In this document: piece by piece, positions 1 through 44,310 of the stretch
Layout of the letters: each line of letters starts with the position of its first letter
Position numbering within the stretch: position 1 is the stretch's first letter
Notes under the pieces: model-generated
What the model saw: the letters and a program-made list of their open reading frames with translations, nothing else
Database searches by the model: none
What the model was told of the DNA's origin: nothing
DNA from: Octopus sinensis
Taxonomy: Eukaryota
DNA length: 64,000 nucleotides
Direction: 5' to 3'
Assembly: GCF_006345805.1 (NCBI RefSeq)
Contig: NC_043003.1
Span: 15,934,001-15,998,000, forward strand
Program-made: the position numbers and the translations under genes

Positions 1-321
1 CAGTGCATACCAACACCTAGCATCGGGCCGGGGAGTATAACATCTAAATCTATGGCGAAAATAATTTCCAGCTTCAACAATTATATGACTTCTGATTCTG
101 ATAATATAACGGCCCTTGTTTCGCAATGAGAACGTTCCATCCTCGTAGCTACCACGTAATCTGCATTCTTCCGGTTGTTAGTATATCGCATGTCAGACGT
201 TGATAAGAAAATATATGCGGAGTAGCATAGTCGTTTGAGTTCGTTACACATTTCCGTAAATATGATTTTTACCTACGTTAAAAATAATGTTTATCATTAT
301 CTATCACTGGCACAAATTTAT

Positions 322-1256
322 TTCCTACTCTAGGTACACGACCCGAAATTTTCGGGGAGGGAGGCAGTCGATTAGATCGACACCAGTACGCAACTGGTAC
401 TCTATCGACCACGAAAAGAAGAGGAGCAAAGTCGACCTCAGCAGAATTAGTACTCAGATCATAAAGACAGACAAAATACCGCTAAGCATTTAGCCCGGCG
501 CGCTAACGTTTCTTATTTCTTTATTGCTCACAAGGGGCTAAACATAGAGGGGACAAACAAGGACAGACAAAGAGAATAATTCGATTACATCGACCCCAGC
601 GCATAACTGGTACTTAATTTATTGACCCCGAAAGGATGAAAAGCAAAGTCAACCTCGGCGGAATTTGAACTCAGGGCGTAAAGACAGACGAAATACCTAT
701 TTCTTTACTACCCACAATGGGCTACACACAGAGGGGACAAACAAGGACATACAAACGAGTCAAGTCGATTATATTGACCCCAGTGCGTAACTGGTACTTA
801 ATTTATCGACCCCGAAAGGATGAAAGGCAAAGTCGACCGCAGCGGAATTTGAACTCAGAACGTAGCGGCAGACGAAATACCTATTTCTTTATTACCCACA
901 AGGGGCTAAACACAGAGGGGACAAACAAGGACAGACATAGGTATTAAGTCGATTACATCGACCCCAGTGCGTAACTGGTACTTAATTTATCGACCCCGAA
1001 AGGATGAAAGGCAAAGTCGACCTCGGGGGAATTTGAACTCACAACGTAACGCAGACGAAATACCGCTAAGCATTTCACCCGGCGTGCTAAAGTTTCTTAT
1101 TTCTTTATTGCCCACAAGGGGCTAAACAAAAAGGGAACAAACAAGGACAAACAAAGGGATTAAGTCGATTACATCGACTCCAGGGCGTAACTGGTACTTA
1201 ATTTATCGACCCCGAAAGGACGAAAGGCAAAGTCGACCTCGGCAGAATTTGAACTC
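322..1256 (-). mobile_element. Tandem multimer (~5 units) of tRNA-derived SINE family A (GGCGGCGAGCTGGCAGAA... family; probably one of the octopus OK/OR SINEs)
   Basis: Repeated ~165-200 bp unit containing cgaccccgaaaggatgaaaggcaaagtcgacctcggcggaatttgaactcag, whose reverse complement carries a B-box-like GAGTTCAAATTCC. The same unit recurs more than 20 times in the window. Confidence 0.9.
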
Positions 1257-2291
1257 CTACGACACGTACTTTTTTGTGAAGAGTATAACGAACTTCACCC
1301 TGATGGCCGTATCATTTGATCAAACTTGAAAGTCCCACACTTTTAAGCATGGAAACCATTTCATATATTTAAAATATTTTTTATTCACATTTATTATTCA
1401 TTCACTCAAAAATATTCTTCTAATGGTCAAGATCTATAAACAATTATTATACAACATCATATTTTTGTACACACACACACACACACACACACATAAATAT
1501 ATTTACACACATACGAGCTTACAAATGCATATATATGTTTATGAGTATCTGTCTATGTATATCTAAGTATATGTGTATCTACATAGCACTTGCTTTTGTG
1601 CGTATGTATATATATCTATATATGTGTGAATGTGTGTGGGTATGTGTGCGTCTGTGCATGTGTGTACATTTATGTATGATTGAATAATGCGTGTGCTTTT
1701 GTATCTGACATATGGACAACTAGGTTATTACACACACACATACACACACACACACATAAACACGCACACATATGTTCCGATTCGCATCTTGTAAAAATAC
1801 ATGTGTAACATTTTGGCCCCTATTGAGTCCTTATCCAATTAATGTACTTTTTATTATACACATGAATAAAAACATTTATCGTATTGCATAAATATATGTG
1901 TGTGTGTGTGAATATATATATATATATATATATGTTTGTACATATATGTGTGTATATATATATATATGTATATATGTGTGTATATATATGCATATATGTG
2001 TGTATACATATATGTATATATATACATATATATGATTGTATGTAAATATATATATATATATATGTATGTATATACATATATATATACATGCACATATATA
2101 CATATATATATGTGTGTGTGTGTGTGTGTGTATGTATATATGTATATCCATTGACTAACATATACATATATATATATGTGTGTGGGTATATATTTCGAGC
2201 TTATTCAATATGGCACAATTTGTAACATTAAACAATTTCTGTATTCAATAATTCGACAATTATTTTGTATTCTGCGAAATAATATATAATG

Positions 2292-4916: not shown

Positions 4917-5310
4917 CACATTGCTAAAGGGCAAATAACGTGAAACTAGTCTGTGGGTGTCTGAACCAGCATGGTGAAGCTGATGACCTCCCCTGTTCGA
5001 TGATTGTAATGGACACAGGTTTCTGTGTCACATAGCTAGCTAGATACGGTGGCCTCTTGGAGCTAATCAATGACATCATTCGTCTTATTTTTCTGGGCTA
5101 CCATGTTACCTTGGCTATAGCTATTAATACCCAGTACTGCTGCCGTAGTCTCCTTTAGAGAGATTTATAAATAATATTTCTACACACACACACACACACA
5201 CACACACAAATATATATATGATTTTTGATTTTGATTTTTCCAGTTTCAGCTAATGAGCTGTGGCCATGCTGGGGCACCGCCATTATATATATATATATAT
5301 ATATATATAT

Positions 5311-5589
5311 AAGAATTTTTTGTGTAATAAGATGAAAAAACCAAGGCTGCATAGATATTAAAGCATTTATAGATAAACCTTCTATCAATAAATGCTCTAA
5401 TATCTATACAGCCTTGTTTTTTTTTATCTTATTACGCAAAACATTCTTATATACACACGCTGACATAGAACCAACGTTGAACCATTTATTCGCAATATTA
5501 CCGAATCTGGAACTTAACTATGGTCTGTCTATAGCACTTATTCAGCATTACCTTGCACCTTTTTGTCTCAATGACACCATTATCTCTCT

Positions 5590-5590
<1 letters not shown>
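5311..5590 (+). mobile_element. Fold-back 3' fragment of a Penelope-like element (same family as 43362-44282), flanked by (TA)n
   Basis: 5311-5375 is an inverted copy of ~5383-5448. 5376-5590 matches the reverse complement of 43362-43572. Confidence 0.75.
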
Positions 5591-5623
<33 letters not shown>

Positions 5624-7390
5624 CACATATACATATGTAGATATAGATGCATATATACGCTTATATATTTGTCTGTCTCTCTGTACGTATGTATTATGGG
5701 TGTGGGTTTAAGTGTGTATATGTATTGAAACTCCGAATACACTTTTGTCAGGCTTCGAATATCAATACATTTTATCTAATAGTACATCATGCAATATCAC
5801 TTGGCTAGCCTCCGTCTCATCTGCGCTCTCTCTCAGGTATTCTTTCAGCCTGTCACAATTGCGTCAAAAACTGTTCTATTCACGTAAAGTGAAGGAAAAG
5901 TTCGTGCTGCAACAATAATATCAGATGTACTATTAAGTTTGTGCTGTGAACGTCGAGAGTCATCGTATTTTGAAGCAAATTCTGTAAATACGTAATCCGT
6001 AACGTAACTTAATACAAGCTCCAGGCGTTTTTTGTCTTTGATGGATTGCATTCAATTGCAAATATTTCCCATCAGATCTTACGTCTTCGGATAATCTAAG
6101 AATAGTTGATACTTTCTTTCCTACTAAATATTCTCAGCACTTCTCTCTGTATATGGTTGCGATTTCATGTATATAATTTGTAGGGTATTCGGCTCATGAT
6201 CATAGAGTCACGAGTTTGATACCTTCCAAAGCGTTGTGTCCCTGAGTAACACATTTTATTTCACATTGCTTCACTCCACTCAGCTAGCAAAACTGAGTAG
6301 CACTTGTAGATCAAAGGGCCAGTCTTATCACAGTCTGTGTCAGCCTGAATCTCTCTCTGTGAACTACAAAAGGGCATGCGTGTCTGTGGAATGATCAGCC
6401 ACTTGTACGTTAATATCCTTTGATAGGATCGGCTGGAATTGCCATCATCGTAACCGAGGGAGAGCCAGTTACTTAAGTATGAGATATTTTGCACATTATG
6501 TTAGATCACATACTGTCTTAACAACTGTTTCTGATGGACGTGTTTTCACTAGCCAAATCTGGCACAACTTTTCGTCTTGTTCCCATTTAAATATGCTTCA
6601 ACACAGCACGTCCATAACAGATATTGTCTCAGATAAGTACCGCAGTAACTTGCCTGTCAACGATGTATATACGTCAGATATAATACATTCTTTTACTCTT
6701 TTACTTGTTTCAGTCATTTGACTGTGACCATGCTGGAGAACCGCCTTTGGTCAAGCAAATCGACCCCAGGACTTATTCTTTGTAAGCCTAGTACATATTC
6801 TATCGTTCTCTTTAGCCGAATCACTAAGTTACAGGGACGCAAACACACCAGCGTCGGTTGTCAAACGATGTTGGGGGACAAACACGGACACACAAACATC
6901 CCACCCCACCCACACACACGCATATATATATATATACATACATACGACGGGCTTCTTTCAGTTTCCGTCTACCAAATCCTCTTACAAGCCTTTATAGAAA
7001 CCTACAGAAAAGGAATGAGTCGGGACGATATTCCTGAATAATGGTAAATGCAATTTCAGGGTGGATCGAAGGTAACAGGGGTGGCGAGAAATGAAGTGAC
7101 ACGTGCTCGGGGACTACATGCATAAATTTACGTTCTTTCATTTTTCATTTCTAATTCACCCGAGATCGACTTTCTCTTTCTCTTTTTCATCACTTCTGCA
7201 TGAATAAAATGCAAACTTATCTTATACTAGAATCAATGCTCTTCGACTATATTTCTTCTCTACAAATTTGTAAACTTGTGATAATCTCTGGCCTAACGAT
7301 CAAACACACATATTGCATATATCCGAAAGATACACTCGTGCTTCAAACAGTTAGCCTTTCTTTCTTTGTCCCTTTTACCCTATTCCTTAC

Positions 7391-9895: not shown

Positions 9896-10110
9896 ATAGA
9901 AGGATACAATCAGAAGTGTACAGCATGACGTCGAATGATAAAGATGTTCAGATCTACCACACACAGACACACACACAGACACTCACGTGTGAATGTAATA
10001 TAATATACATGTTTGTATATACATAGATGTATATGCGTGTGTGTGTCTTTGTGTCTGTGTTTGTCTGACCAGCACCGATTGTCAAACGGCGTACCTTTGT
10101 TGATGTTACC

Positions 10111-10341
10111 TATTTCTTTATTACCCACAAGGGGCTAAACATAGAGGGGACAAACAAGGACAGACATAGGTATTAAGTCGATTACATCGACCTCAGTGCG
10201 TAACTGGTACTTGATTTATCGACCCCGAAAGGATGAAAGGCAAAGTCGACCTCGGCGGAATTTGAACTCAGAACGTAACGACAGACGAAATACGGCTACG
10301 CATTTCGCCCGGCGTGCTAACGTTTCCGCCAGCTCGCCGCC
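10111..10341 (-). mobile_element. Full-length SINE family A monomer with ~14-bp TSD, inserted in a family B remnant
   Basis: Flanked by ttgttgatgttacc (10097-10110) and ttgttgacgttacc (10344-10357). Confidence 0.9.
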
Positions 10342-10438
10342 TATTGTTGACGTTACCGTAACTTAGCAATCCGACAAAACAGACGGATGGAATAATTTCC
10401 AGACGGATAGGATAACTTCCAGGCGGTTAGAATAATTT

Positions 10439-10590: not shown

Positions 10591-11852
10591 GAGTTATTAG
10601 AGGATGTGCAGATTATCACATAGTCATGCATGAGCCTAAATGTGTGTGTGTGTTTCAGCGTGCGTGCTTGTAACATATGCAAAGGTTAAAATTGCCAATA
10701 AATCTATGAGGTAAAATTTTTCAGGGTTACAATATTAGTCTATATGATTATATACACACACACACACAAAAAAAAATCGGAAATTTCACCAAAACAAACA
10801 AATACGTGTTCAAATTTCCTATAATCGCCAAGACAAGATTCTCCTTCATACAGGTAAATTGTACGCAGCCAACACAAGTTACACTAGGCTTTCTATATTC
10901 CTACTAACGTTAGAATTACTCTGAGAGAATTCAAGTGTGTTACAATTACAGTAGTGCAGAAATGTAGGAGTCGAGATTCATGCGTCTATTTAGAGATACA
11001 TAATTGTATGAGCATCTAATGATGAGGTGGCAATTTTTAGAACCACAACATTGGTAGTCGTGATTATTATGAAACAAATTTAAGAAAAATCTCGGAATCT
11101 CTATGGAAAATTATATAAATATACACATTACCGAAAATCGTCTCAACGATCGGTATTTACCGACAATTTTCGTCACCAAAGATTGAAAAAAGTGAAGCAG
11201 TAGGGTAGCAGTTTTCTATGAGGAGAAAATGACATTGTCATTCAATATATATATACATATGCGTGTGTGTGTGTGCATGCATGCATACATAGATACTTAT
11301 ATGCTTATGTGAGTATATATGTGTCTGTACAACCATCTCTCTGTCTCGTGTAATGTGAAGTAAGTTTTGAACTGTTCTGAATCAAAGATTTTATCTAGTT
11401 TTAACACACAATAGAATTCATGCATTTCCTTCCCTCTCGATTCGATAAGCTGTCTCCTGTTGATGCAGGTGAAGTCTTTTAGAGGTGTATGAAACTAAAT
11501 AAATTGATTGGCAGCTTATTTTACTGTACTTTTCTCATAGGATCCCTCACCCTATTTCCACGACTTATACGTGACCGAGGTTGCCACACACCCCTATGAA
11601 CGAGGCACCAGTCTGTTACAGGGTTGAAAGCCAGCAATTTCTGAGAAGAAGGAAAAGTCGATTACGTTGACTCCACTACTTGATTCGTACTTTATTTTAT
11701 CAACCTCGAAAGGATAAAAGGCAAAGTTGACCTTGGCAGAATTTGAACTCAGAAAACAAAGAGCCTTATGAAATGCAGTTATGCATTTTGTCCGATTCTG
11801 CCGCTTATGTTATTGTTATTTATTGTTATTTATTTATTATAACAACAACGAA

Positions 11853-12451
11853 GGCGGCGAGCTGGCAGAACCGTTAGCACGCCAGGCGAAATGCTAAGCA
11901 GTATTTCGTCTGCCGCTACGTTCTGAGTTCAAATTCCGCCGAGGTCGACTTTGCCTTTCATCCTTTCGGGGTCGATTAAATAATTACCAGTTATGCACTG
12001 GGGTCGATGTAAATGACTTAATCCGTTTGTCTGTCGTTGTTTGTCCCTTGTGTTTAGCCTCTTGTAGGTAGTAAAGCAACAGGTATTTCGTCTGCCACTA
12101 CGTTCTGAGTTCAAATTCCGCCGAGGTCGACTTTGCCCTTCATCCTTTCGGGGTCGATTAAATAAGTACCAGTTACGCACTGGGGTCGATATAATGAACT
12201 TAATCCGTTTGTCTGTCCTTGTTTTTCCTCTCTCTGTTTAGCCCCTTGTGGGTAGTAAAGAAATAAGTATTTCGTCTGCTGTTATGTTCTGAGTTCAAAT
12301 TCCGCCGAGGTCGACTTTGCTTTACATTCTTTCAGGATCGATAAATTAAGTACCAGTTATGCACTGGGATCGATGTAATAAAATTAATTTCTTTGACTAT
12401 CCTTCTTTGTCCCCTCTATGTTTAGCCCCTTGGGGGTAATAAAGAAATAAG
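11853..12451 (+). mobile_element. SINE family A trimer (one head plus reiterated body)
   Basis: Head ggcggcgagctggcagaa at 11853. The body restarts at gtatttcgtctg at ~12083 and ~12267. Confidence 0.9.
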
Positions 12452-13894
12452 AATTTTTAGCGCATAGTATAGAGGGCTTAGCGACATTTGTTTCGGATCT
12501 TTACCTTGTATATTTGACTGTCACCGCCGAGGTCAACTTTGCTCTTTACCATTCCGAGATCGATAAAATAAAATACCAGTTAAGTATTGCGGTCGATGTA
12601 ATCTACTCACTCCTTCCCCAATGTTGCTGCCCTCTATCAAAGTTAGACAGAAATTCACCATATCGAAACGATAGATTTAAACTTCGAAAATCGAATGCTG
12701 GGACCAAATATTATTATGCATTTTTCTACAGCTGCCTTTTGCTGTGATTAATATATTATAGTGTTAAAGAGGCGAGCTGGCAGAATCGGGAGCACGCCGG
12801 GTGAAATGCTTCATGGCATTTCGTCCGTCGCTATGTTGAGTTCAAATTCCGCCGAGGTCAACTTTGTCTTTCATCCTTTTGGGGTTGATAAAATAAGTAC
12901 CAGTTAAACACTGGGGTCCATGTAATTGAATTATCCCCTCCCAGGAAATTGCAGGCCTTGTGTCAATATTTGGAATCACTATGATTATATGATATCACAT
13001 ATTATATGATTATACGATTACGATATTACATATTATATGATTATATGATATAACATAAAATTATATGCTTATATGATTTATTTCAAAACAGGAAAATAAG
13101 TTCAATGTTAATAAATTTCTGATTTGATACTAATTTAAGGATAAATAGGAGCATAAAACAAAATCACTTGTACAAGATTTCCATGAAACTAGAATGAAAA
13201 GTTGTTTTTAAAGAAATAGGTCAATATCTATAACTAGCAGTAACAAAGATTCTTTTGATAGAAATTTTCATTAAAGCTTATATATTCATAACCGTATAAA
13301 TAAAACCCGATAAACAACTATTTAAATGTATGCTTCGAAGTCTATTTAAAATTTATTGACTAAGCGTTATTATTAAGTCAAACCATAGAAAATCTTCAAA
13401 CTTATCACAAAAGACATTACATGCCTTTTGTCGAACTGTATTACCAGTGGGCAAAATCTTTATTTTGAACTGTGATGAGAATTATTGTCTAAGTGCTGAT
13501 ATCACATAAAGACCTCTGCGACATTTTGGTGCCGAATTTACAACTGTTGGCCGATGGTATCTCGTAATCTGTTACAACTTCAAATATATTATTCGGAAAA
13601 TAAAAGCCGCAGCTGTATCATTCTTCTGTTATCTGTAGGCAGTACTTTCATCACAATCAATGAGTATACACTTTGTATTACACTATTATTCAATCAGATT
13701 TAGTCATATGTTATACAGACTTCCTTAAAACTTCTAAACTTTCGTAAACACATTAGAAAATTCCGAAATTCCACAATTCAACATATTAATATATATTACC
13801 CAAATGAAAAAGTTAACATTAATACATTATCTATTAATTATGTTGATTTCTCTGTCAACATCCGCTTTCGTTTCCTTACAGCTAATTGATATTC

Positions 13895-14304
13895 TTTTCT
13901 ACTCTTTGGGGGAGAGGGCCGGTCGATTACATCGACCCCAGTGCGTAATTGGTACTTAATTTATCAACCTCGAAAGAGTAAAAGTCAATGTCGACCTCGA
14001 CGGAAATTGAACTGAGAACGTAGCAGCAGACGAAATACCGCTAAACATTTCGCCCGGCGCGCTAAAGTTTCTTATTTCTTTATTGCTCAAAAGGGGCTAA
14101 ACACAGAGGGGACGAACAAGGATAGACAAAGGTATTAAGTCGATGACATCGACCCCAGTGCGTAACTGGTACTTAATTTATCGAACCCAAATGGATGAAA
14201 GGCAAAATCGACCTCGGCGGAATTTGAACTCAGAACGTAACGACAGACGAAATACCGCCAAGCATTTCGCCCGGCGTGATAACGTTTCTGCCAGCTCGCC
14301 GCCT
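13895..14304 (-). mobile_element. SINE family A dimer
   Basis: Two body units. Flanks ttacagctaattgatatt and ttacagccaattgatatt look like a TSD. Confidence 0.85.
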
Positions 14305-15392
14305 TCTTACAGCCAATTGATATTGTAAAAGATTTAATGCGCTCAACATATATTGATTTGTTGCTTCATGGGTCCCCATCCGTGGCAAAGCCAACATCTT
14401 TGTTAAGTATAATATTACATCTGATTAGATCAACGGGTGCTAATTGGTTTCCATTAAAAATTTTGGTGTTAAAAACTTATGCGCAATGAATTGGTTATAT
14501 TTTTGTTATACACAAAATATTTTAACAATTTTTAATGCAATTCTCAATAATATTTAATTACAAAAATACGATAGGATTTTTCAAACATGGAATGGTTATG
14601 AGGTGTCCGTCCGATTGAAATAGTAGTCAAAGTTGTCTATAGGCAAAAAAGGTTACTACCCACTGGATTAGATCATCATTATCTCCGCCACACACGATAA
14701 GGCTCTGTAGCTTGGCTTAGAGAACAGACGGCTAATTTTCCTTAATATTGCCTAGCTCTTGTTTAGTCTAATTGGTCGAAGGCGTTCTTCGATGCTCAGT
14801 TTGTTTTAATATATCTTCCGAAATATGGTAAGGAATGAGACATAAATAAATCCAAATATTAAATAAGATGATATGGCAATATATAATACTTTTACTATAG
14901 TTCCTCGAGTTCCCAACATAAAATTGAGCCAATATTGATTCTAACATTTTGAATTGGAGAAAGTGATAACAACTATAAGCATTTTCTTGTTGAAATATTT
15001 AGTTTCTGGCGTGTGAACAACTTTCAAATAACAGCTGGAACTCTGTATACGACTCTTGAGACCAAACTTCTCGATTATCCTAGCCTCTACAACTACAGTC
15101 AAGTAACTATGTTTTGTAAATTATACTCTTTGCGGACAAGTCATTATCTAAATTTGTGTCACTCTAAAATTACATACAAAAAGAAAGCTAGGTATCGCCG
15201 TAAAAAGTCCCTTTTTTACAATAGGACAAATTTATATTATTTGCTCTCAACCGAAGCAAGGCTCTATGACCTCACTTTGTCATCTCTTCAATTAGAGTTC
15301 GTTAACGTTTACCAGCAGAATTTCATCTCAGTATAAAAGTGCCATGTACACGTTGCTTTTTATCTTTTAGCATTAAAGGCTACCGGCAAGGA

Positions 15393-15842
15393 AGGCGAGC
15401 TGGCTGAATCGTTACTGCGCCAGGAAAAAGGCTTAGCGGCATTTCTTCTGTCTTTAGGTCCTGAGTTGAAATGCCGCCGGGGTCGACTTTGTTTTTCATC
15501 CTTTCGGGGTCGAGAAAAATAAGTACCAGTTGAGAACTGGGGGTCGATAAAATCGTTCTACTCCCTTCCCTGAAATTGCCGATTTTATTCCAAAATTTGA
15601 AATCAATATATATTTCTTTACTACCCACAAGGGGCTAAACATAGAGGGGACAAACGACGACAGACAAATGGATTAAGTCGATTACATCGACCCCAGTGTG
15701 TAACTGGTACTTAATTTATCGACCCCGAAAGGATGAAAGGCAAAGTCGACCTCGGCGGAATTTGAACTCTGAACGTAACGGCAGACGAGATACCGCTAAG
15801 CATTTCGCCCGGCGTGCTAACGACTCTGCCAGCTCGCCGCCT
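15393..15842. mobile_element. Two oppositely oriented SINE family A copies (older + at 15393-15600, younger - at 15611-15842)
   Basis: The younger copy is flanked by the duplication ttgaaatcaatata (15598-15611 and 15842-15855). Confidence 0.85.
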
Positions 15843-17069
15843 TGAAATCAATATAGGTTACCGATCATCAGACAACGACTGTGTCTTACTTTTATCGATG
15901 CTAACGTTTGTCCATGATCAAGAAGATCTTAAACTTTCGTCGACACATTATCAACAGAATATCGAAAACTCTGTACAGCGTTAGGTAATAAAGAACAGAT
16001 ACGACACAGAAGATTATAAAATATCTCCCCGATCCCGAAGTCGAGGGTTATTGTTTTACGACGTTTGTTATGTGATATCTTAGAGAACGGCATTGAATAA
16101 TCTCTGAGAACGAAACTAAGAACTGATCAATTTAAATCTTAGATAGGTAGGGGTGAAGTTTATTATTACTTTACACTTTCTAGCTTATGCTGCCAGTTAG
16201 AATTTTCTTACACGACAATGAATAAGTTTGATAGTCGAGGGTTCGTCGGAATATTTCGCTTACTTATTAATGAAGGTCTAGATTAGATTATAGATAAGTA
16301 GATTCTATTTTGCTTCACTGAATTTATCTCAATTAATTCTGACAACGTTACTGAATAAATGAAAAAATGTTAAATACCTTACGGGAAATTTCGATTTCGT
16401 TTTACCTTTACTCTCATTATCTAACATTTTTCACATTTTTCACTATTTCTCTCTATTTCTTTTCACTCTGGTATTTCTCTCATTCCATTTCTCATCGTAC
16501 CATCCACACACAGATATATCTATTGTTTCACACTCAATTTAAAGAAGGAGTCCCAATGCGGCCGCTCGGCTTAACAAAATTGTTGCCAAATCTCCTTCAA
16601 ATTCTACCCTGCCTACATAAAAGTCAATGAAATAACATAGAGAAATATACGTGTATCAAATACCCTACAATCTAAATTCGTGATTTATTAAAATTATATC
16701 CGTCTCAAGATGATGTATCATAATTACCAAGAGGCAATTAAAACCAAATCCACTTGAGAAGCTTAGAGATTCAAGTTTTCTCCAAAACTATCATGCCATT
16801 AGAAAATGGATATGCTTGTTGTCTGATCATATAAAGTAATTGTGATTATAATATGTCAGAAAATAAAACAAAGTGACGTCGGCTTCAATGCCGGCCGCAC
16901 GATGTGAGTTCGTTACCCAAATATTTTCTCCGTATTCCTGTGCCATTGGAATAAGGCGTGACTAGTAATTCTACACGAAACTAAACTTGATTCTTTCTAC
17001 CTTTTTGTGTATATGTATCTGCGTACGTCTACCATCCCCATTTCTGTGCAGTTATTCTTTTATTTTTTA

Positions 17070-29480: not shown

Positions 29481-30897
29481 ACAAACAAGAATACTGTATT
29501 GAGATCGACATTAAAACCTGTACGATTGAAACGGAAATTTTAATCAAAATTGTGGGGAAGCTGCATACAGGGACCGCACAGTTAGTCTTTCTTCATTTAA
29601 TAATACAAAATTTGTTATTTTTGTCGAGACTAATATATATATATATATATATATATATAGGGATTGGACAACGTATAGACATTTATAATTAACTTTCGAT
29701 TACATCAAAAACATTTGTATTCTTAATGAGTTTATTAAATTGTAATTATTCTGTGTATAAACTGAAAATTGACTTATTACATTGATCGATTGAGAATCGA
29801 TAAAATGTGAAAATAACAATCGAAGTCTAAATAATTTCAGCTTAAAATCATATAAATATAATTATATGTATATATGTATGTATGTATATTTGTGTGCATG
29901 TATGTGTGTATGTATGTAATTATTCAGTTGTATTTCAAAATTTCTTGCCAATAGAGAAAGAGCTGGTTTCTAACCTAGGTTCAAGGCTCCTTCATTGGTA
30001 TTTCAATATCAACAACAGGGTTCTTTTGTATGTATGTATGTATGTATGTATGTATGTATGTATGTATGTATGTTTGTGTATGCTTTGTTTTATATATGTT
30101 TTCTCATGTATGTATGTCTTTTCATGTATGTATGTCCTCTCATGTATGTATGTATGTATTTATGTACGCATGTATGTATGTGTAAGTGTACACATGTGCG
30201 TGTATATGTATGTTGTCCGAGTGTCTGTGATGAGGAATTATATACGTTATCATTGGTCAACCAGAATCACATCTAAGTAGTATATATGATAATTACAAGA
30301 AGAAAAAATGTCAAATATCCTTTTCTACTCTAAGCACAAGGCCCGAAATGTTGGGAGAGGGGGCCAGTCAATTAAATCGACCCCAGTTCGCAACTAGTAC
30401 TTAATTATCGACCGCGAAATGCTGATAGGCAAATTCGACCTCGGCGGAATTTGAACTCAGAACGTAAAGAGAGACCAAATATCGCTAAGTATTTCGTCCG
30501 GCGTGCTAACGTTTCTGCCAGCTCGCCACCTTAAGAATATCAAATTTCATCTAAAAATTGGTTTAAAAATGGAATTGTAATAACTCTTTTTTTACTACAG
30601 GCGCAAAACCTGAAATTTTGGAGGAACGTGACAGTTGATTACATCGACCCCAGAAACCAACTGGTACTTATTTCATCGGGCTCGATAGGACGAACGGCAA
30701 AGTCGACATCGGCGAAATTTGAACTCAGAACTTAAAGCCGGTAACAATGACACAAAGCATTTTGCCAGAGGAATACCCTAAATTAGAATTGTAATAATCT
30801 GATCTACTATAGGCATAAGGAGTGAAATTTGGAAGGAGGAGTGTGTCAAGGCGGGTGACAGCGTCCTTAGTAGTTGACTGGTATTTATTGCATTGAA

Positions 30898-31366
30898 GGG
30901 CGGCGAGCTGGCAGAATCGTTAGCACGCCGGGTGAAATGCTTAGCTGTATTTCGTCTGCCGTTACGTTCTGAGTTCAAATTCCGCCGAGGTCGACTTAGC
31001 CTTTCATCCTTTCGGGATCGATTAAATGAGTACCAGTTATGCACTGGGGTCGATATAATCGACTTAATCCGTTTGTCTGTCCTTGTTTGTCCTCTCTGTG
31101 TTTAGCCCCTTGTGGGTAGTAAAGAAATAGTCCTTGTTTGTCCTCTCTGTATTTAGCCCCTTGTGGGTAGTAAAGAAATAGGTATTTCGTCTGCCGCTAC
31201 GTTCTGAGTTCAAATTCCACCGAGGTCGACTTTGCCTTTCATCCTTTCGGGGTCGATTAAATGAGTACCAGTTATGCACTGGGGTCGATATAATCGACTT
31301 AATCCGTTTGTCTGTCCTTGTTTGTCCTCTCTGTGTTTAGCCCCTTGTGGGCAGTAAAGAAATAGG
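30898..31366 (+). mobile_element. SINE family A multimer with internal tail duplication
   Basis: Head at 30899, duplicated tail at 31130-31180, second body at 31182-31366. Confidence 0.9.
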
Positions 31367-31939
31367 CATTTACTGCATTGATACCGAAAGGATGAAAGAC
31401 AAAATAGAAGAAGAAGGAGAAGAAGAAGAAGAGAAGAAGAAGAAGAAGAAGAAGAAGAAAAAGAAGAAAAAGAAGAAGAAGAAAAAGAAGAAGAAGATAG
31501 CGTAAAGTGTTTTGAATAAACAAAAGAAAGAGGGAGCGAAGAAAGAAATAAGAATGGAACACTTGAGAAGGCAATCTCTAGAGTAAGATGTTTCTCGATG
31601 GCAGTTTCGTGGGGGTAGGGACGTTAGAGACAGAATTACTCCCACTTACTGTTTTCTTTACATATAACTTATCATTGAGAAAGGTAAATCTGTTATACAA
31701 TATTTCCACAAAGCACTCATTTAATTTTAAAGGAGGTTTTTATTTCAGAAAAAATATTAAACCACATTCCCTTTAAAACAAACTTAAATGTAGCTAGAAC
31801 GAATGATCTAGGTAGCTAAAATCGAAATTTATATAGAAATAATTACTTTTGTGATATGTTTTATATAAGTTTGTTCTGTGCTTTCAGAGGTGCATATTAT
31901 AATTCAAAATAGCTCCTTAATACCCTGTACATATCGTAA

Positions 31940-43314: not shown

Positions 43315-43364
<50 letters not shown>

Positions 43365-43571
43365 AGATAATGGTGTCATTGAGACCCAAATGTGTCAGGT
43401 AATACTGAATAAGTGCCATAGGCCGACCATAGTTAAGTTCCAGATTCGGTAATATTGCGAATAAAGGGTTCAACGTTGGTTCTATGTCAGCGTGTGTATA
43501 TAAGAATTTTTTGCATAATGAGATAAAAAAACCAAGGCTGTATAGATATTAGACCATTTATAGATAGAAGG

Positions 43572-43621
43572 TCTTACAGCTGTTTCTAGGATATTAATTA
43601 ATAATATCCCTTCATCGGAGA
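43572..43621 (-). ncRNA. Hammerhead ribozyme motif, U4C core variant
   Basis: Exact reverse complement of 44161-44210. Confidence 0.7.
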
Positions 43622-44160
43622 AGGTGTGAGAGGAAAAGTTAAGTCAAAGCTAGATTAGATGTGATACAAATAGAGAGTGAGGTGGAGGAAAGAAAATAGA
43701 TGTGAGATATGTAGGGATATTGAAGTTGTAAATGCATTTTATAGGCAGAATGGTATATATGCAATATTCCAATATCCTTTGAGTAAAATCCAAAAGTCCA
43801 ACAGAGTTTAAAATAGGTCCTTCGAAATATAGAGTTTAAATACAAGCCTTCGACTCTGCAACACTGTATATAAATTCTCTACTGGGAATAACCAAGTTTA
43901 AAAATCTGCTGGATCTCACTCATAAGAGAATCTTATATTGCTTATAAACTTTATATTTGAAAGAACTCATTTTAAACTCTGTTGGACTTTTGACTTTACT
44001 CAAAGGATATTTGAATATTGCATATATACCATTCTGCCTATAAAATGCATTTACAACTTCAATTCCCATACATAACTTACATCTTTTTTCTTTCCTCCAC
44101 CTCACTCTCTATTTGTATCACATCTAATCTAGCTATGACTTAACTTTTCCCCTCACACCT

Positions 44161-44210
44161 TCTCCGATGAAGGGATATTATTAATTAATATCCTAGAAAC
44201 AGCTGTAAGA
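44161..44210 (+). ncRNA. Hammerhead ribozyme motif, U4C core variant
   Basis: tct-CCGATGA-a gggatatta ttaat taatatcct a-GAA-ac agct gt-A-aga. Palindromic stem III ACAGCTGT; predicted cleavage after 44207. Confidence 0.7.
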
Positions 44211-44310
44211 CCTATCTATAAATGGTCTAATATCTATACAGCCTTGGCTTTTTTATCTTATTACGCAAAAACTTCTTATATATATACATACATATACATA
44301 TGTATATATA

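What the first reader, a model, noticed from the sequence alone, without database searches (positions are those of the whole stretch)
5311..5590. Insertion junction coincides with the predicted ribozyme cleavage site
This fold-back copy belongs to the 43362-44282 family but lacks the ribozyme. Its sense arm starts at a(a)accttctatc (5375/5376). The full copy reads ...cagctGTA^agaccttctatc, so the 5' junction lies within 0-2 nt of the predicted scissile bond. Inference: the template RNA was the 3' product of self-cleavage, which would be genomic evidence that the ribozyme was active in vivo and that reverse transcription folded back at the RNA 5' end. It is a single case.
Basis: partly seen in the sequence, partly recalled or inferred. 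Interest (0 to 1): 0.75.

Follow-up and report, generated by a model that had tools for sequence, protein, structure and literature searches.

The report
Ribozyme-edge junctions in Penelope retrotransposon copies
This is a short mirror-image copy of a likely Penelope-type jumping gene; across the genome its relatives begin unusually often at two exact spots of a predicted self-cutting RNA, the predicted cut site and a spot seven bases upstream, so a minority of copies were likely made from RNA that the ribozyme had cut.

Summary
5311-5590 is an inverted arm plus a sense arm that starts 0-2 nt from the predicted hammerhead cut; it equals a recurrent junction with one G>A change, and its true end is ambiguous over +1..+4. 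I ran the family test. In 220 insertions, 5' ends are twice as dense at +1..+20 as upstream. A genome-wide list shows two discrete ends: +1 (10 of 63 arms, background 2.2) and a stronger one at -6 (21 of 63) that cleavage does not explain. With microhomology modelled, +1 was not significant in the smaller set (7 vs about 4). A younger sister family with the same ribozyme fold has 0 of 78 ends at its cut and piles up 30 nt below a TATA-like box. Simple fold-back is disfavoured: the inverted arm outruns the sense arm in 68 of 151 copies, and solo inverted-type arms exist. Verdict: twin-primed Penelope-like insertion; cleavage of some templates about even odds; this copy alone proves nothing. The scan noted Penelope hammerheads elsewhere in this genome, none on this sequence.

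The parts
5284..5310 (.). (TA)n target, left flank; its last bases are shared with the TATATA at family +72..+77
   Evidence: sequence; inverted arms end at +77 in 107 of 151 copies and abut TA repeats in 108 of 151
5306..5375 (-). Inverted arm, family +77 to +9; inferred product of a second reverse transcription primed at the internal TATATA
5375..5377 (+). Arm junction; matches the recurrent [AGA] microhomology junction with G>A at 5376; sense start +1..+4
5377..5590 (+). Sense arm, family +3 to +218 (3' part of the pseudo-LTR, downstream of the predicted cut)
   Evidence: 92% over 211 nt
5448..5453 (+). Internal TATATA (+72..+77), inferred second priming site; defines a 141-nt 'tail'
   Evidence: solo insertions ending here between TA runs
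5591..5625 (.). (TA)n-rich right flank; no target-site duplication can be read
43362..44282 (-). Longer twin-arm copy of the same family; arms join at about -264/-373
43571..43621 (-). Minimal type I hammerhead motif, sense arm (CCGAUGA core, palindromic ACAGCUGU helix III); predicted cut between 43575 and 43574
44161..44211 (+). Same hammerhead motif in the inverted arm; predicted cut between 44207 and 44208

Best explanation
The stretch is a two-armed, tail-to-tail insertion of the terminal repeat of a likely Neptune-type Penelope-like retrotransposon, likely made by two reverse transcriptions primed from the two ends of a cut (TA)n target, on RNA whose 5' end likely lay at the hammerhead. 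One cDNA would start at the element's 3' end (+218), the other at an internal TATATA (+77); their 3' ends would be trimmed by 0-20 nt and joined at short microhomologies. The family shows two exact 5' ends, -6 (first base of the palindromic loop 3) and +1 (the predicted scissile bond). I infer that +1 ends come from a minority of templates cut by the ribozyme, probably as a dimer, and that -6 is a separate RNA 5' end, most likely a transcription start. Shown: anatomy, end distribution, arm concordance. Inferred: twin priming, cleavage, the nature of -6. For this one copy, descent from a cut RNA is about 0.35-0.4.
For: Arm-end rate per 1000 nt: 2.7 (+41..60), 6.8 (+21..40), 20.4 (+1..20), 10.9 (-19..0), 9-11 upstream; 371 arms of 220 insertions (arms are correlated, rho 0.37, so its p values are overstated). 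Microhomology weight is flat along the element, 0.7-1.2. Genome-wide list, all 94 rows: 63 junction arms end at +3:8, +2:5, +1:10, 0:3, -1:2, -2:0, -3:1, -4:4, -5:1, -6:21, -7:0, -8:2, -9:3, -10:3 (by eye, 29 of 30 held rows agree with the script); the filter also hid the [AGA] class, at least 3 more at +1. In joins without microhomology, +1 and -6 have 6 arm ends each and -5..0 have 3 together (one of each six is a doubtful call). +1 follows an A, not a pyrimidine, unlike the family B start (T/A at -81/-80), which argues against a transcription start there (initiator rule recalled). Twin priming: inverted arm longer by >10 nt in 68 of 151; solo +77 insertions exist (6 loci shown); both arms carry the same subfamily alleles (site +33: 6 of 104 discordant, 43.5 expected). 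Ribozyme fold: five sequence families keep stem I and a palindromic helix III with different letters; the dimer minimum-energy fold pairs helix III (8 bp) and stem I.
Against: -6 is the larger peak and no hammerhead chemistry predicts it. Against a microhomology-aware null, +1 was 7 vs 3.9-4.3 expected (p 0.09-0.15) while -6 was 11 vs 2.7 (p 0.001); both peaks begin with AG, which the inverted arm offers often. +1 against +2 alone is not significant (12 vs 5, p 0.07). Family B, young and with 39 of 78 arms carrying the canonical CUGA core, has 0 of 78 ends at -2..+4. In tail-anchored copies without an inverted arm there is no hot zone (6 of 49 vs 56 of 106, p 1e-6). The core carries U4C and lacks the G10.1-C11.1 pair; U4C lowers activity in vitro (PMC3088659, passage). 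In the anole element ribozyme mutants did not affect insertion in vitro and no reads began at the cut (PMC11167929). The link of this family to a coding element rests on one locus.
Confidence: 0.5

Rival explanations
1. Both -6 and +1 are transcription starts of an internal promoter, and the ribozyme does not cut; AG microhomology sharpens the peaks and the match to the scissile bond is coincidence.
For: Family B shows that 5' ends mark a likely start site: 31 of 83 arm ends fall in -81..-62, beginning 30 nt below a TATTTATA box, tenfold above background. -6 is a C|A dinucleotide in ACAG, like family B's start. A TATA-like TATTATTA/TATAATTA lies at -31 in loop II. +1 was not significant with microhomology modelled.
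Against: +1 is A|A, not pyrimidine|purine; position 0, which the TATA-like box would favour, has only 3 of 63 ends. No TATA box 30 nt above -6. A better TATAAAA at -169 gives only a modest pile at -142..-123 (9 ends, 8.1 vs 2.5-3.4 per 1000 nt). No extra-G cap mark seen at either peak (read by eye), nor clearly in family B, so this mark is uninformative.
Confidence: 0.27
2. The RNA is uncut; reverse transcriptases stall at the folded or dimerised ribozyme (stem I at +1..+4, the 8-bp palindromic helix at -8..-1), two enzymes meeting there, and the cDNAs are then joined.
For: The hot zone is confined to twin-arm copies in the tail-anchored set. A recurrent 3-nt deletion at +5..+7, the foot of stem I, appears in one arm only in 14 of 46 insertions and in both in 1, as slippage at a pause would give. 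Family B has a weaker 6-nt palindrome and no hot zone.
Against: No pile at the foot of the longer stem II (-12/-13). Stalling on entry would peak at +5, not +1, and -6 is near the far end of the helix. Solo insertions also end at -6 and about +1.
Confidence: 0.18
3. One reading: one cDNA runs off the cut 5' end and folds back on itself (TCT pairing with AGA six bases away) to make the inverted arm.
For: This copy's geometry allows it (inverted arm shorter than the sense arm, 3-nt homology). Arms share alleles. Snap-back junctions are described for R2 proteins (PMC11331408, passages).
Against: Snap-back cannot give an inverted arm longer than the sense arm (68 of 151). The fixed outer end at +77 also occurs in solo insertions and has a counterpart at +142 in family B. 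The 3-nt deletion is almost never shared by the two arms.
Confidence: 0.05

Closest known systems
EN+ Penelope-like elements, Neptune type (PMC8557442; passages read)
   Same: 5'-truncated copies, an inverted 5'-truncated copy next to the 5' end, a tail on one arm, (TA)n targets, hammerhead in the pseudo-LTR, Cys-rich linker before GIY-YIG.
   Different: Tail is 141 nt, not 30-40 (family B here has about 30). Most long copies continue into at least 1.8 kb of shared non-coding sequence, so the family may be largely non-autonomous. That paper calls hammerhead function unclear.
Minimal type I hammerheads of metazoan PLEs (Cervera and de la Pena 2014, PMC4209133; parts 1-2 of 4 read)
   Same: 4-bp stem I, long stem II, palindromic helix III suited to dimers; cleavage of precursor RNA proposed there without in-vivo evidence.
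   Different: U4C core and A.A in place of G10.1-C11.1; here a genomic 5'-end map is added.
PAc of the green anole (Frangieh et al. 2024, PMC11167929; parts 1-2 of 4 read)
   Same: Both target strands cut and extended, two internal start sites defining the tail, AT-rich targets, predicted protein dimer, protein-assisted ribozyme.
   Different: There uncut RNA was the main template in vitro and no RNA-seq read began at the cut; here genomic ends pile at +1 and -6, and priming sites are TA homologies to the target.
R2 retrotransposon HDV-like ribozyme (Eickbush et al. 2013, PMC3774820; abstract and outline read)
   Same: Ribozyme cut position is reflected in genomic 5' junctions.
   Different: Different ribozyme class and element; in R2 the cut defines the element's 5' end, here at most a minority of templates.
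L1 twin priming
   Same: Second primer from the other target end anneals inside the RNA, giving an inverted 5' segment joined by microhomology.
   Different: Here the two arms overlap, so the same stretch is copied twice (one RNA twice, or two RNAs from one source).

Membership tests
EN+ Penelope-like element (Neptune type) | RT plus C-terminal GIY-YIG endonuclease with Cys-rich linker joined to this terminal repeat | tested here: inconclusive
   One locus (L285) joins the repeat to a broken ORF end with KCGDPRCG and NLIYCATCPECKEYYI, 42% identical over 53 aa to an intact 777-aa frame that hits RVT_1 (E 2e-6, below cut-off) and GIY-YIG (E 6e-5, above cut-off). The 9 nearest ORF relatives lack this repeat within 1.5 kb. 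No RT domain was seen joined to this family.
EN+ Penelope-like element (Neptune type) | Inverted 5'-truncated copy and one-sided tail | tested here: met
   151 of 220 copies have an inverted arm; its outer end is +77 in 107 of 151 while sense arms run to +218
EN+ Penelope-like element (Neptune type) | (TA)n target preference | tested here: met
   108 of 151 inverted arms abut TA repeats
EN+ Penelope-like element (Neptune type) | Partial tandem pseudo-LTR / ORF / pseudo-LTR | tested here: inconclusive
   Seen for family B in 3 of 6 loci; not found for this family in 8 long loci
EN+ Penelope-like element (Neptune type) | Phylogenetic placement of the RT | not tested
   No tree built; 'Neptune' rests on the linker motif and target
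Minimal type I hammerhead ribozyme | Topology: stem I, core box, stem II, GAAA, palindromic helix III, UH cut, kept by covariation | tested here: met
   Five families with different letters keep stem I and the palindrome; columns conserved in the family. No hammerhead among the 150 of 212 Rfam rows shown.
Minimal type I hammerhead ribozyme | Canonical core CUGANGA and G10.1-C11.1 pair | tested here: not met
   CCGAUGA in 57 of 68 arms; A.A at the base of stem II in most arms. Family B: CUGA 39, CCGA 39, with U.U
Minimal type I hammerhead ribozyme | Self-cleavage | not testable with these tools
   No assay; no raw RNA reads offered
Animal non-LTR retrozyme | Head-to-tail tandem units each with a hammerhead | tested here: not met
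   The 120 loci mapped are single or inverted, not head-to-tail arrays of ribozyme-bounded units; definition from bioRxiv 10.64898/2026.07.22.740005 (part 1 of 5 read)

The most novel reading that the evidence does not exclude
This family records hammerhead cleavage of a Penelope-like RNA in vivo: a transcript starting at -6 carries only the substrate strand (loop palindrome, GUA, stem I) and is cut in trans by a partner RNA's catalytic half, even with a U4C core, so that genomic copies preserve both the uncut (-6) and the cut (+1) 5' ends; RNA pairing through the palindrome would also position the two reverse transcriptions that build the inverted repeats typical of these elements.
Probability: 0.2. 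Interest if true: 0.8.

Novelty: new variant of a known kind. Interest (0 to 1): 0.5.

Why it matters
What hammerheads do in Penelope-like elements is stated to be unclear (PMC8557442), and the one in-vitro system found cleavage dispensable (PMC11167929). Junction mapping gives a genomic read-out: one family shows an end at the predicted cut, a sister family shows none and marks its promoter instead. That points to family-specific, partial use of cut RNA and gives two exact positions (+1, -6) to test by 5'-end chemistry. The data also favour twin priming at TA homologies as the origin of the inverted arms and tails. My searches listed no paper mapping genomic 5' junctions to a Penelope hammerhead cut; the library lacks most subscription papers, and I saw no supplements.

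Tried and rejected
Rfam scan of the window: no hammerhead among the 150 of 212 rows shown. RNA: no RNA holder listed, no raw reads; contigs of four runs gave no usable ends. Monomer folding of the ribozyme is not better than shuffles (z -1.4 and -0.7). Idea that the two arms come from unrelated source loci: rejected, subfamily alleles are concordant. Idea that +1 or -6 copies descend from one re-mobilised master: not supported, pairwise distance 0.083 and 0.077 vs 0.082 overall. Fixed inverted-arm length of 60-80 nt: not seen in family B. Erosion of palindromes after insertion: disfavoured because family B junctions stay at -80. Microhomology density as cause of the hot zone: flat. Small piles at +44 and +55/56 are probably alignment artefacts of T/A runs. 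One family B pattern search returned 1 hit and was uninformative. An anchoring bug was fixed. Dropped rows: 223 copies to 220 (2 duplicates, 1 second arm of one insertion); 28 read-through rows, 1 internal deletion, 2 duplicates of 94. Only the first 100 of 324, all 55 and the first 100 of 411 tail hits were sampled.

Full report
Numbering: +1 is the first base after the predicted cut (GTA^AGAC), 0 is the scissile A. 'Family A' is the finding's family; 'family B' is a younger relative used as a control.

Observation. Window 5306-5375 is an inverted copy of +77..+9 and 5377-5587 a sense copy of +3..+218, between TA runs. The ribozyme core is absent; the 43362-44282 copy carries it in both arms. 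The junction equals the recurrent form TATAGAT[AGA]CCTTC (7 of 46 junctions, by eye) with one G>A; such changes occur at 87 of 3673 non-CpG G sites. Because AGA belongs to both arms, the sense start is only fixed to +1..+4.

What the element is. The first look found 4569 candidates in the genome. One locus joins the repeat to a broken ORF end with a Cys-rich linker and GIY-YIG-type motif, related to an intact RT/GIY-YIG frame. The 9 nearest ORF relatives do not carry this repeat, and several long copies run instead into at least 1.8 kb of shared non-coding sequence. So it is likely a Neptune-type Penelope-like terminal repeat, perhaps mostly non-autonomous. The hammerhead fold is real by covariation across five families but deviates: CCGAUGA in 57 of 68 arms and no G10.1-C11.1 pair. 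U4C lowers activity in vitro yet allows viroid infectivity (PMC3088659, passage). The dimer fold pairs the 8-nt palindrome and stem I, as proposed for minimal PLE hammerheads (PMC4209133).

The family test. I sampled copies by exact tail motifs, blind to their 5' ends (fetched in 18-20, 28-31): 220 insertions, 151 with an inverted arm. Arm ends per 1000 nt at risk were 2.7 at +41..60, 6.8 at +21..40, 20.4 at +1..20, 10.9 at -19..0 and 9-11 further up (the arms are correlated, so p values there are too small). A separate list of 100 of 589 arms gave 28 ends in +1..+19 and 4 in -20..0, or 25 and 7 if ambiguous ones are moved (by eye). Microhomology supply is flat along the element, so the hot zone is not its product.

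Single bases. In the 220 set the furthest-reaching arm ended at -6 in 12, +9 in 9 and +1 in 7. Against a null that keeps microhomology preference, -6 stood (11 vs 2.7, p 0.001) and +1 did not (7 vs 3.9-4.3, p 0.09-0.15) (75 junctions). A genome-wide filter for arms ending in -10..+3 gave 94 rows and 63 junction arms: 21 at -6, 10 at +1, mean 2.2 at the 11 other positions excluding the edge at +3; 7 of the 10 are new to the tail set, and the filter hid at least 3 [AGA] cases. +1 exceeds that background (p about 1e-4) but not +2 alone (12 vs 5, p 0.07). Some +1 joins are blunt, one insertion has both arms ending at +1 with one base between, and a few lack an inverted arm. So +1 is probably a real end, second to -6.

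Control family. Family B has intact frames and the same fold with other letters, half of its arms with CUGA. Of 83 arm ends, 31 fall in -81..-62, starting 30 nt below TATTTATA; 0 of 78 end at -2..+4 (also none at +1 among 100 of 194 arms listed). A differs from B at the cut (24 of 199 vs 0 of 75, p 0.0005). Thus 5' ends can mark RNA starts, and use of cut RNA is not general.

How the arms arise. The inverted arm outruns the sense arm by more than 10 nt in 68 of 151 copies, which fold-back cannot give. Its outer end is the TATATA at +77 in 107 of 151, and solo insertions ending there lie between TA runs. Family B has equivalent ends at +142 and about +170. Arms share subfamily alleles, so both come from one source. 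This fits twin priming from both target strands, as the anole protein extends both strands in vitro (PMC11167929). Against a simple 'RNA ends here' reading, tail-anchored copies without an inverted arm show no hot zone (6 of 49 vs 56 of 106).

Reading. Most likely (0.5): twin-primed insertion; a minority of templates cut at +1; -6 a separate 5' end, perhaps a transcription start that would yield only the substrate strand. Rivals: two transcription starts (0.27), stalling at the paired ribozyme (0.18), snap-back (0.05). Cut-to-junction correspondence is known for R2 (PMC3774820, abstract); my searches listed none for Penelope hammerheads. Also seen: PMC8557442 and PMC11331408 (passages), bioRxiv 10.64898/2026.07.22.740005 (part 1 of 5). 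No supplements were read; those of PMC11167929 (Fig. S2) bear on RNA ends at the cut. The names twin priming, initiator rule and TATA spacing are recalled. Earlier scan notes describe other hammerhead-bearing Penelope families in this genome; none matched this sequence, and none changed my reading.

Noticed in passing
family A position -6 (window 43581 on the minus strand): Strongest exact 5' end of the family, 21 of 63 arms; first base of the palindromic loop 3; unexplained.
   Followed up: partly
L300:2852-5890 (G000:C7:75817000-75824500): Young Penelope-like family with near-intact RT/GIY-YIG frames, CCAAT and TATA-like boxes, 5' ends piling at TATA+30, priming ends at +142 and about +170, and a hammerhead with CUGA and CCGA subfamilies.
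   Followed up: yes
family A +5..+7 (e.g. window 44211-44212): Recurrent 3-nt deletion at the foot of stem I, in one arm only in 14 of 46 insertions and in both in 1; may be per-arm slippage.
   Followed up: partly
L282:7860-9300, L283, L284, L286-L288: At least 1.8 kb of shared pyrimidine-rich non-coding sequence upstream of the repeat, ending in a splice-acceptor-like CTAG|G; possible retained intron or non-autonomous master.
   Followed up: partly
family A -169 and -142..-140; -48: TATAAAA at -169 with a modest pile of ends 27-29 nt below; three single-arm copies start at exactly -48.
   Followed up: partly
window 21665, 37958, 45085 (plus strand): Three more hammerhead-like motifs with CUGA cores; 37958 and 45085 share stem I and an ACAATTGT palindrome.
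   Followed up: no
window 427-1330, 10024-10343, 11849-12463, 13888-14305, 15524-15843, 30895-31377: Abundant repeat family of about 184-270 nt, partly in head-to-tail arrays, on both strands.
   Followed up: no
ends at +1: The base before +1 is C in 6 of 10 arms; may be a non-templated addition or chance.
   Followed up: no
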